The position numbers were made by a program, and so were the translations under genes. Positions 248 through 665 of a DNA stretch of 7,565 bases are shown here, piece after piece; the first letter of the stretch is position 1; every line of letters begins with the position of its first letter. The notes beneath the pieces are model-generated. The model was not told the DNA's origin. It saw nothing but the letters and a program-made list of their open reading frames with translations, and did not search any database. Source of the DNA: a virus (Monodnaviria; Loebvirae; Hofneiviricota; Faserviricetes; Tubulavirales; Inoviridae); IMG/VR virus record IMGVR_UViG_2537562217_000001. The stretch is one strand, 5' to 3'.

Positions 248-302
248 TGGAGCACCTCAAAAACACCATCATACACTAAATCAGTAAGTTGGCAGCATCA
301 CC
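1..302 (-). mobile_element. IS1 insertion sequence, partial (left end; element continues beyond window start)
   Basis: Reverse complement of 280-302 is GGTGATGCTGCCAACTTACTGAT, which I recognise as the IS1 terminal inverted repeat. The adjacent minus-strand reading frame translates to the IS1 InsA sequence. Phage-like sequence begins immediately at 303. Confidence 0.9.
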
Positions 303-350
303 ATTGAGACGCCCAATAAATTATTCTCTGACTATGTAGGGAGAATAGAA

Positions 351-665
351 ATGAATCAAAATACCATATTAACTGATGAAAAAATAATTAATCTCACAAG
401 AAAAATACAGTCTACATATTTATTGTGGAAGCAGGGCGCGAACATGAAAGAGATGTTACCGAAACCTACATTCTACCGACACCGTAAAGAATTACTTTCT
501 TTCGGAATAGATATTAACTTTTATTGTGAGTCACCGGATTCTAATAACGTTGTTCCGTTGGTTCGTACTCTTGAAGCCAAACCAGCCAAAATTCCATCAT
601 GGGTTTATGAGAAAGGTTTAATTTTCGATTATAACCGTATTTCACATGCCAGTAACTGGCATTAA
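351..665 (+). CDS. Hypothetical phage protein, 104 aa (position corresponds to Ff gene X / C-terminal replication-protein region, or a small regulator); function not recognised
   Basis: Complete ORF with strong RBS GGGAGA at 339-344, 6 nt upstream of ATG 351. First gene of the co-directional phage operon. The same frame is open upstream to the IS1 junction. Confidence 0.4.
   Translation: MNQNTILTDEKIINLTRKIQSTYLLWKQGANMKEMLPKPTFYRHRKELLSFGIDINFYCESPDSNNVVPLVRTLEAKPAKIPSWVYEKGLIFDYNRISHASNWH

What the first reader, a model, noticed from the sequence alone, without database searches (positions are those of the whole stretch)
280..665. IS1 inserted exactly where the replication gene should be; first phage ORF may be a gene X-like remnant
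The IS1 end at 302 abuts phage DNA at 303, and the only reading frame open across 303-350 is the one in frame with ORF 351-665. In Ff phages gene X is an in-frame internal restart within gene II, just upstream of gene V. This ORF (internal RBS GGGAGA, directly upstream of the pV-like gene) may be the surviving C-terminal restart product of a replication gene truncated by IS1. Alternatively it is an independent small regulator. Either way IS1 likely inactivated the prophage and may now supply promoter activity for the operon.
Basis: inference. Interest (0 to 1): 0.5.

Follow-up and report, generated by a model that had tools for sequence, protein, structure and literature searches.

The report
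IS1-split phage replication gene, gene X intact
An IS1 insertion sequence has cut the replication gene of a YpfΦ/CUS-1-type filamentous prophage of E. coli in two, and the 104-codon ORF beside it is that gene's own nested "gene X", left whole with its ribosome-binding site; this is an ordinary decay event in a known phage.

Summary
Window 1-302 is the IRL end of IS1, phage DNA starts at 303, and ORF 351-665 is the only open + strand frame across the junction.

The main interpretation is also right. The ORF matches Pfam G2P_X_C (E 4e-35). In 100 complete E. coli genomes and in Yersinia pestis YpfΦ, the same DNA is the 3' end of an uninterrupted 350-codon gene II. ATG 351 is codon Met247 of that gene, the same aligned codon where gene X is annotated in phage I2-2 (58% identical pII). 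It lies within two profile positions of the M13 gene X start.

Met247 is invariant in 111/111 homologues. Synonymous codon choice just upstream is strongly biased towards a Shine-Dalgarno sequence, so the restart is a selected feature of the family.

A sister assembly shows a complete 768-bp IS1 with a 9-bp target duplication (ATTGAGACG). It lies at the boundary between the two pII domains, and the 5' two-thirds of gene II sit on its far side.

Gene II is needed for YpfΦ particle production, so the prophage is very probably replication-dead. I found no support for an IS1-supplied promoter.

This is a known kind of feature and GenBank already names it as II/X family. Interest is low.

The parts
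1..302 (-). IRL-proximal 302 bp of IS1 (the contig starts inside the element). IRL is at 280-302 and a partial insA lies on the - strand.
   Evidence: Sequence. Pfam Zn_ribbon_InsA/HTH_Tnp_IS1 on the called gene at 1-247. The full 768-bp element is seen in L002 at 9185-9952. A pIRL-like promoter on the - strand at 295-268 points into IS1.
303..311 (.). Right-hand copy of the 9-bp IS1 target-site duplication, ATTGAGACG (codons 231-233 of gene II).
   Evidence: In L002 the same 9 bp flank IS1 on both sides, at 9176-9184 and 9953-9961. It is a single copy in UTI89, at L001 8001-8009.
303..665 (+). 3' remnant of gene II (codons 231-350 plus stop) of a YpfΦ/CUS-1-type inovirus.
   Evidence: Collinear with L001 8001-8363, inside the annotated 350-aa 'phage/plasmid replication protein, II/X family' gene at 7311-8363.
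339..344 (+). Shine-Dalgarno sequence GGGAGA of gene X, encoded by codons Gly243-Arg244 of gene II.
   Evidence: Duplex energy with the anti-SD is -8.9 kcal/mol, in the top 1% of in-frame positions in the gene. Family-wide synonymous bias at these codons: Arg AGR 27/32 versus 25% elsewhere, Gly GGR 18/22 versus 28% elsewhere.
351..665 (+). Gene X: 104-codon in-frame restart ORF, equal to the C-terminal domain of pII (Met247-His350).
   Evidence: Pfam PF05155 G2P_X_C, E 4.1e-35. TIGR01629 profile positions 299-406. Aligns with the annotated gene X of I2-2, which also starts at codon 247. Met247 is invariant in 111/111 homologues.
677..994 (+). Gene V-like ssDNA-binding protein gene.
   Evidence: Pfam PF17426 Putative_G5P, E 1.2e-52.
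997..5866 (+). Intact structural and assembly module: orf83 (997-1248), major coat (1283-1516), pIII-like (1581-3293), pVI-like DUF2523 (3306-3593), pI/Zot (3597-4622), pIV secretin (4622-5866).
   Evidence: ORFs and Pfam hits. ORF lengths match those in UTI89, with no frameshifts.
5955..6597 (+). attR-proximal accessory ORFs of unknown function (5955-6203 and 6349/6400-6597).
   Evidence: ORFs with no Pfam hit. Their position matches the YPO2280a/YPO2281 homologues described for YpfΦ/CUS-1 (PMC4266046).
6738..6765 (+). dif site (GGTGCGCATAATGTATATTATGTTAAAT), the right boundary (attR) of the prophage.
   Evidence: Sequence. Similarity to UTI89 ends at 6765. YpfΦ/CUS-1 integrate at dif and leave an intact dif at the 3' end of the prophage (PMC4266046). 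That this 28-mer is the E. coli dif sequence is from my own knowledge.

Best explanation
Window 303-6765 is the right-hand three quarters of a YpfΦ/CUS-1-type filamentous prophage integrated at dif in E. coli (P0298942-type strains). A 768-bp IS1 inserted by ordinary transposition, with a 9-bp duplication, after codon 233 of the 350-codon replication initiator gene II.

The insertion falls at the boundary between the N-terminal nuclease domain (PF05144, residues 1-231) and the C-terminal domain (PF05155, residues 253-336). ORF 351-665 is not a new gene. It is gene X, the conserved in-frame internal restart of gene II (Met247 with its own Shine-Dalgarno sequence). It lies 48 bp downstream of the insertion point, so it stayed whole.

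Shown:
- the insertion anatomy;
- homology to pII/pX;
- identity of the restart codon with the annotated gene X of I2-2 and, at profile level, of M13;
- family-wide selection for ATG plus SD.

Inferred:
- In intact phages the restart yields a 104-aa pX. By analogy with Ff (Fulford and Model, my own knowledge), pX restrains pII-driven replication and is needed for single-strand accumulation.
- In this lineage full-length pII can no longer be made, so rolling-circle replication and virion production are lost.
- Any remaining expression of gene X, gene V and the downstream genes most likely comes from read-through from the native gene II promoter across IS1, weakened by IS1 polarity. An IS1-borne promoter is less likely.
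For: IS1 end at 302, with collinearity to UTI89 gene II from codon 231.

Complete IS1 plus the ATTGAGACG duplication, and a 259-aa N-terminal pII fragment (233 aa plus a 26-aa IS1-encoded tail), in sister assembly L002. L002 is 99.99% identical to the window over all 7565 bp.

Both fragments are deposited from the same strain series, E. coli P0298942.x, under the name 'phage/plasmid replication protein, II/X family'.

Family matches: Pfam G2P_X_C E 4e-35 for the ORF and 3e-36 for M13 pX. In TIGR01629 the ORF starts at profile position 299 and M13 pX at 297.

I2-2 gene X is annotated from codon 247, and the GRIEM motif aligns.

Met247 is invariant in 111/111 homologues. The aligned codon is ATG in 44 of 48 clusters at <70% identity. 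The SD rank relative to in-gene controls has median 0.07. AGR and GGR codon bias: p 9e-12 and 3e-7.

Y. pestis pII is 100% identical to the UTI89 protein. Disruption of that gene, YPO2274, abolishes phage particles (PMC4266046).
Against: No expression data exist, so translation from Met247 has not been shown for this phage group here. I2-2 gene X is, as far as I know, assigned by analogy with Ff.

The far side of IS1 is seen in a sister assembly, not in the window's own contig.

The loci used for the codon test are related, so the p-values overstate independence. Clustering at 70% identity only reduces this problem.

Met247 invariance could partly reflect a structural role.
Confidence: 0.9

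Rival explanations
1. The ORF is merely a dead pseudogene fragment. After the IS1 insertion it is neither transcribed nor translated, and it looks intact only because the insertion is recent.
For: No + strand promoter-like site lies between the gene II promoter and the ORF. IS1 is known to be polar (own knowledge). The lineage carries P262T at a proline kept in 109/111 homologues, and 10 of 14 coding differences from UTI89 are non-synonymous. The allele is absent from 5,426 complete E. coli genomes and was seen in only 21 contigs read.
Against: The ORF keeps its SD and ATG. All downstream phage genes are full length. No intrinsic terminator is predicted within IS1 on this strand, so read-through is possible. 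This rival concerns present activity only. It does not dispute what the ORF is.
Confidence: 0.35
2. The ORF is an independent small regulator gene, unrelated to the replication gene.
Against: The ORF is never stand-alone. In 111 proteins and 73 genomic loci it is the in-frame 3' end of gene II. It matches G2P_X_C and rep_II_X, and no regulator family. The reading frame is open upstream right up to the IS1 end.
Confidence: 0.02
3. IS1 now drives the gene X - gene V operon through a hybrid promoter, with a -35 in the IS1 end and a -10 in phage DNA.
For: IS1 fusion promoters are documented (Prentki 1986, Goussard 1991, Olliver 2005, as listed in PMC9330008). The IRL end read outwards contains TTGGCA at 289-294, 8 bp from the terminus.
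Against: At 17-18 bp spacing the flank reads CCCAAT / CCAATA, which lacks the key A2 of a -10 hexamer. The consensus scan reports no + strand site in 1-700 or across the whole IS1.
Confidence: 0.1
4. Met247 is conserved for structural reasons only. There is no gene X in this II/X subfamily, and the ORF is just what the first in-frame ATG happens to leave.
For: No direct protein evidence for pX in YpfΦ/CUS-1. The YpfΦ review lists 13 ORFs and no gene X.
Against: Synonymous-site bias towards purine-rich SD codons occurs exactly 3-4 codons upstream, and a protein-level constraint cannot explain it. Across the 111 aligned homologues, Met247 is the only invariant Met column; even the initiator column is Met in only 103. 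The position coincides with the experimentally established Ff gene X start at profile level.
Confidence: 0.07

Closest known systems
Gene X of phage I2-2 (Lineavirus I22, NC_001332): in-frame restart within gene II
   Same: pII is 58% identical over 344 aa. Gene X is annotated from codon 247 in both, and the same GRIEM motif precedes the start. Gene V follows directly. The two share the same replication module.
   Different: I2-2 is a non-integrating, IncI2-pilus-specific phage, and its structural genes are unrelated to this one's. Its pX is 98 aa rather than 104. There the gene is intact; here the upstream two-thirds are severed by IS1.
Gene X of Ff phages (M13/f1/fd): pX, 111 aa, from codon 300 of the 410-codon gene II
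   Same: Same Pfam domain (G2P_X_C: ORF E 4e-35, M13 pX E 3e-36). The restart lies at the same profile position (TIGR01629 299 versus 297). The gene order II(X)-V is the same.
   Different: Only about 32% identity over 56 residues. Function has been shown experimentally only for Ff.
YpfΦ of Yersinia pestis and CUS-1 (CUSφ) of E. coli O18:K1:H7: dif-integrating filamentous prophages
   Same: Window 303-6765 is 99.77% identical to the UTI89 (O18:K1:H7) prophage. UTI89 pII is 100% identical to the Y. pestis protein. The prophage ends at an intact dif (PMC4266046).
   Different: This copy has IS1 in gene II (= YPO2274). The published descriptions I read do not list a gene X for these phages.
IS1 insertional inactivation with a 9-bp target duplication
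   Same: A 768-bp element with IRL/IRR, insA/insB and a 9-bp direct repeat ATTGAGACG.
   Different: Nothing unusual. The only curiosity is that it landed at the pII domain boundary and left both halves as complete domains.

Membership tests
Inovirus gene X (in-frame internal restart of gene II) | Lies wholly within, and in frame with, the 3' third of the replication initiator gene. | tested here: met
   ATG 351 = L001 8049, and (8049-7311)/3 = 246, so it is codon 247 of the 350-codon gene II in UTI89.
Inovirus gene X (in-frame internal restart of gene II) | Product is homologous to the pII C-terminal / pX domain. | tested here: met
   PF05155 G2P_X_C: E 4.1e-35, 120.7 bits against a cut-off of 25. 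M13 pX hits the same model.
Inovirus gene X (in-frame internal restart of gene II) | Start codon at the position of the gene X starts in reference phages. | tested here: met
   Same aligned Met as the annotated I2-2 gene X. TIGR01629 profile start is 299 against 297 for M13 pX.
Inovirus gene X (in-frame internal restart of gene II) | Own ribosome-binding site, conserved beyond what the protein sequence requires. | tested here: met
   GGGAGA at 339-344. In 48 clusters the aligned codon is ATG in 44 and TTG in 2. AGR 27/32 and GGR 18/22 at codons -3/-4, against 25% and 28% elsewhere. Median SD rank 0.07.
Inovirus gene X (in-frame internal restart of gene II) | Followed directly by the ssDNA-binding protein gene V. 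| tested here: met
   The ORF ends at 665. The Putative_G5P gene is at 677-994.
Inovirus gene X (in-frame internal restart of gene II) | A separate pX polypeptide is made and regulates phage DNA synthesis. | not testable with these tools
   Needs protein detection or genetics. Known only for Ff (own knowledge; PMC7697814).
NCBIfam TIGR01629 rep_II_X | Score above the curated cut-off. | tested here: met
   63.2 bits against a cut-off of 29 for the 104-aa ORF, and 260.1 bits for the intact UTI89 pII.
IS1 | About 768 bp, terminal inverted repeats, insA/insB, 9-bp target duplication. | tested here: met
   L002 9185-9952 is 768 bp with ends GGTAATGAC... and ...GCATCACC. Pfam Zn_ribbon_InsA, HTH_Tnp_IS1 and DDE_Tnp_IS1 match. 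ATTGAGACG is present on both sides. Only the last 302 bp lie in the window.
YpfΦ/CUS-1 dif-integrating prophage | Near-identical sequence, integration at dif next to hipBA, intact dif at the right end. | tested here: met
   99.77% identity to the UTI89 prophage downstream of hipBA. dif at 6738-6765. Y. pestis pII is 100% identical to UTI89 pII.
IS1 fusion (hybrid) promoter | -35 hexamer in the IS end, with a usable -10 hexamer 16-18 bp downstream in the flank. | tested here: not met
   TTGGCA at 289-294, but CCCAAT / CCAATA at 17/18 bp. No + strand hit in the scans. Consensus scans are insensitive, so this lowers the idea but does not exclude it.
Stand-alone HTH transcription regulator | Match to a regulator family, or an independent gene context. 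| tested here: not met

The most novel reading that the evidence does not exclude
The IS1 cut may have turned the prophage into a pX (and pV) expression cassette. The intact gene X, freed from pII, would be kept because its product blocks replication of incoming phages that share this replication module (YpfΦ/CUS-1, UPΦ, I2-2). That would be a superinfection-exclusion function derived from a nested gene.

A weaker variant: the complete N-terminal nuclease domain (233 aa + 26) and pX reassemble in trans into a working split initiator.
Probability: 0.07. Interest if true: 0.5.

Novelty: new member of a known kind. Interest (0 to 1): 0.2.

Why it matters
The practical value is for annotation. The 104-aa ORF should be labelled gene X / the C-terminal fragment of an IS1-disrupted gene II, and the prophage should be scored as replication-defective.

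A small general point also comes out of the comparison. The gene X restart (ATG plus Shine-Dalgarno) is conserved and under synonymous-site selection across the whole II/X replication-protein family. This includes YpfΦ/CUS-1, and the published gene lists for those phages that I read do not mention it. Since YpfΦ and CUS-1 are linked to virulence and fitness in Y. pestis and ExPEC, an unannotated replication regulator is worth adding to their maps. It is not a surprise to specialists.

Tried and rejected
- Source of the junction. A megablast of window 150-700 against 5,426 complete E. coli genomes found no record spanning the junction. The exact-protein look-up then found the window's own contig (L003) and the 608-kb sister contig L002.
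- Solved structures. phmmer of pII against the PDB found nothing.
- A recombination hot spot at the gene X start. This was suggested by P0025 (245 aa, '293 members') and P0024 (a fusion after residue 248). The 293 members proved to be a 90% cluster of assorted partial fragments at contig ends, so I dropped the idea. P0024 alone remains unexplained.
- Literature on pX function. Searches of the held library returned only brief statements. The Fulford and Model papers are not held, so pX function in Ff is cited from my own knowledge.
- Independent regulator reading and IS1 hybrid promoter reading. Both were considered and rejected or down-weighted (see rivals).

Full report
**1. The observation**

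Window 1-302 is the IRL-proximal part of IS1.
- Positions 280-302 read ATCAGTAAGTTGGCAGCATCACC, the reverse complement of the IS1 left inverted repeat.
- The called gene on the - strand at 1-247 carries the InsA zinc-ribbon and IS1 HTH domains.
- The IS1 transposase promoter-like site lies on the - strand at 295-268 and points into the element, away from the phage genes.

From 303 onward the sequence is collinear with a prophage of E. coli UTI89, at 99.77% identity over 6,463 bp.

On the + strand only the frame that starts at 288 is open across 303-350. It is the frame of ORF 351-665. GGGAGA lies at 339-344, and its GGAG core ends 7 nt before the ATG. The next gene (677-994) matches Pfam Putative_G5P at E 1e-52.

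**2. What the ORF is**

The 104-aa product matches Pfam PF05155 (G2P_X_C, 'Replication-associated protein G2P C-terminal') at E 4.1e-35. It also matches NCBIfam TIGR01629 (rep_II_X) at 63 bits against a cut-off of 29.

In UTI89 the same DNA lies inside an annotated 350-codon gene, 'phage/plasmid replication protein, II/X family' (L001 7311-8363). Window 303 corresponds to codon 231 and ATG 351 to codon 247, in frame. Of 113 complete-genome records with a match, 100 hold the region essentially full length, and the 30 best records listed all annotate this gene under the match.

The Yersinia pestis copy of the protein is 100% identical to the UTI89 one and is present in tandem. That identifies the phage as the YpfΦ/CUS-1 group of dif-integrating filamentous prophages (PMC4266046). 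The window accordingly carries an exact dif site at 6738-6765, and similarity to UTI89 stops there.

**3. The insertion**

The window is contig APXQ01000049.1 of GCA_000356525.2, and it begins inside IS1. A 608-kb contig of a sister assembly (L002) is 99.99% identical to the window over all 7,565 bp and shows the rest.
- Gene II codons 1-233 come first.
- A complete 768-bp IS1 (GGTAATGAC...GCATCACC) follows.
- Gene II then resumes. The 9-bp sequence ATTGAGACG is present on both sides of IS1 and only once in UTI89.

The N-terminal fragment reads into IS1 for 26 codons, giving 259 aa in total. It contains the whole PF05144 domain (profile 1-231 of 232). The C-terminal PF05155 domain spans residues 253-336. 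IS1 therefore landed at the domain boundary.

GenBank holds both fragments from the E. coli P0298942.x strain series, each already named 'phage/plasmid replication protein, II/X family'. None of 5,426 complete E. coli genomes has the junction, so the event is confined to a small lineage.

**4. Is it 'gene X'?**

The closest characterised relative is phage I2-2. Its pII is 58% identical, and its record annotates gene X from codon 247, the same aligned methionine, preceded by the same GRIEM motif. M13 pX hits the same Pfam model (E 3e-36). It starts at TIGR01629 profile position 297, against 299 for this ORF.

I then asked whether the restart is a selected feature.
- Among 111 full-length homologues down to about 46% identity, Met247 is invariant. 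No other Met column is; even the initiator column is Met in only 103 of 111.
- I took 70 genomic loci from other species and clustered them into 48 groups at under 70% identity. The aligned codon is ATG in 44, TTG in 2, and a non-start codon in 2.
- The predicted anti-SD pairing upstream ranks at a median of 0.07 relative to all in-frame positions of the same gene.
- At the two codons lying 3-4 codons upstream, Arg is encoded by AGR in 27 of 32 cases against 25% elsewhere in the same genes. Gly is encoded by GGR in 18 of 22 cases against 28% elsewhere (Fisher p 9e-12 and 3e-7).

Synonymous bias of this kind cannot come from protein constraint. It is the signature of a ribosome-binding site. 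The loci are not fully independent, so the p-values are generous, but the effect is large.

**5. How it most likely works**

In the intact phage, gene II gives the rolling-circle initiator pII. The internal restart gives pX, which is identical to the pII C-terminal domain. In Ff, pX is needed for phage DNA synthesis and restrains pII (Fulford and Model, my own knowledge). PMC7697814 states that it is translated from an internal start and has a regulatory role.

In this lineage full-length pII cannot be made. Disruption of the identical gene YPO2274 abolishes YpfΦ particle production (Chouikha 2010, as reported in PMC4266046). The prophage is therefore very probably unable to replicate or to produce virions on its own.

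All downstream genes are still full length, so the insertion looks recent. The 15 differences from UTI89 include P262T in pX, at a proline kept in 109 of 111 homologues. This fits relaxed constraint but proves nothing.

**6. Transcription**

The only + strand promoter-like sites are the native ones upstream of gene II (L002 8330-8424). None lies within IS1 or at the junction, and no intrinsic terminator is predicted within IS1 on this strand.

IS1 can create fusion promoters (papers listed in PMC9330008), and the IRL end read outwards contains TTGGCA 8 bp from the tip. The flank, however, offers only CCCAAT at 17 bp. The idea that IS1 supplies the operon promoter is thus unsupported. Weakened read-through from the gene II promoter is the more economical guess. 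Both remain inferences.

**7. Comparison, novelty and verdict**

The ORF is a member of the known gene II/X family and meets every sequence-level criterion for gene X. Only the existence and function of the protein could not be tested. IS1 disruption of a prophage gene is routine, and the deposited annotation already names both fragments correctly.

The modest addition concerns the gene X restart. It is conserved, with clear synonymous-site evidence, across the II/X family, including YpfΦ/CUS-1. The YpfΦ review does not list it. The UPΦ paper mentions gene X only as contained within gene II.

Interest is low.

Noticed in passing
window 6738-6765: Exact 28-bp E. coli dif site (GGTGCGCATAATGTATATTATGTTAAAT). 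It marks the right end (attR) of the prophage, and similarity to the UTI89 locus stops at 6765.
   Followed up: partly
window 6958-7565 (- strand): An IS3-family transposase ORF (rve and HTH_21 domains in L002) that reads like IS2 InsD but ends early (...EPKNIRP*). It appears to be a 3'-truncated IS2 copy about 190 bp beyond dif. In L002 it is followed directly by a fimbrial usher gene that lacks its start. The identification as IS2 is from memory of the InsD sequence.
   Followed up: no
window 396 (codon 16 of gene X = pII residue 262): The IS1-bearing lineage has Thr where 109 of 111 homologues have Pro. Ten of 14 coding differences from UTI89 are non-synonymous, five of them in the pIII-like gene. 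This may reflect relaxed constraint after inactivation, but the sample is too small to tell.
   Followed up: partly
window 1528-1550: A terminator-like hairpin with a T run lies immediately after the major coat protein gene (1283-1516), the position of the strong terminator in Ff phages. It overlaps the start of a 40-codon ORF at 1528-1650.
   Followed up: no
L002 5614-6381: A second IS1 copy, in the opposite orientation, sits just downstream of hipA at the left edge of the prophage. The two inverted IS1 copies bracket the repressor-like gene, the accessory ORFs and the 5' part of gene II.
   Followed up: no
L002 6562-7344 versus L001 4945-6169: The attL-side accessory region differs between this lineage (two ORFs of 159 and 91 aa) and UTI89 (one ORF of 369 aa). 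This matches the variable attL-adjacent segment described for YpfΦ versus CUS-1.
   Followed up: no
protein P0024 (ENA, 316 aa): A gene II product identical to this family up to residue 248 (GRIEMN) and then fused to unrelated sequence. The break is right at the gene X start. It is a single record and its origin was not examined.
   Followed up: no
window 1581-3293 versus L001 9429-10991: The pIII-like gene is called as 570 codons from ATG 1581 here, but RefSeq annotates it in UTI89 from a start 150 nt further downstream (520 aa). The true start is unresolved.
   Followed up: no
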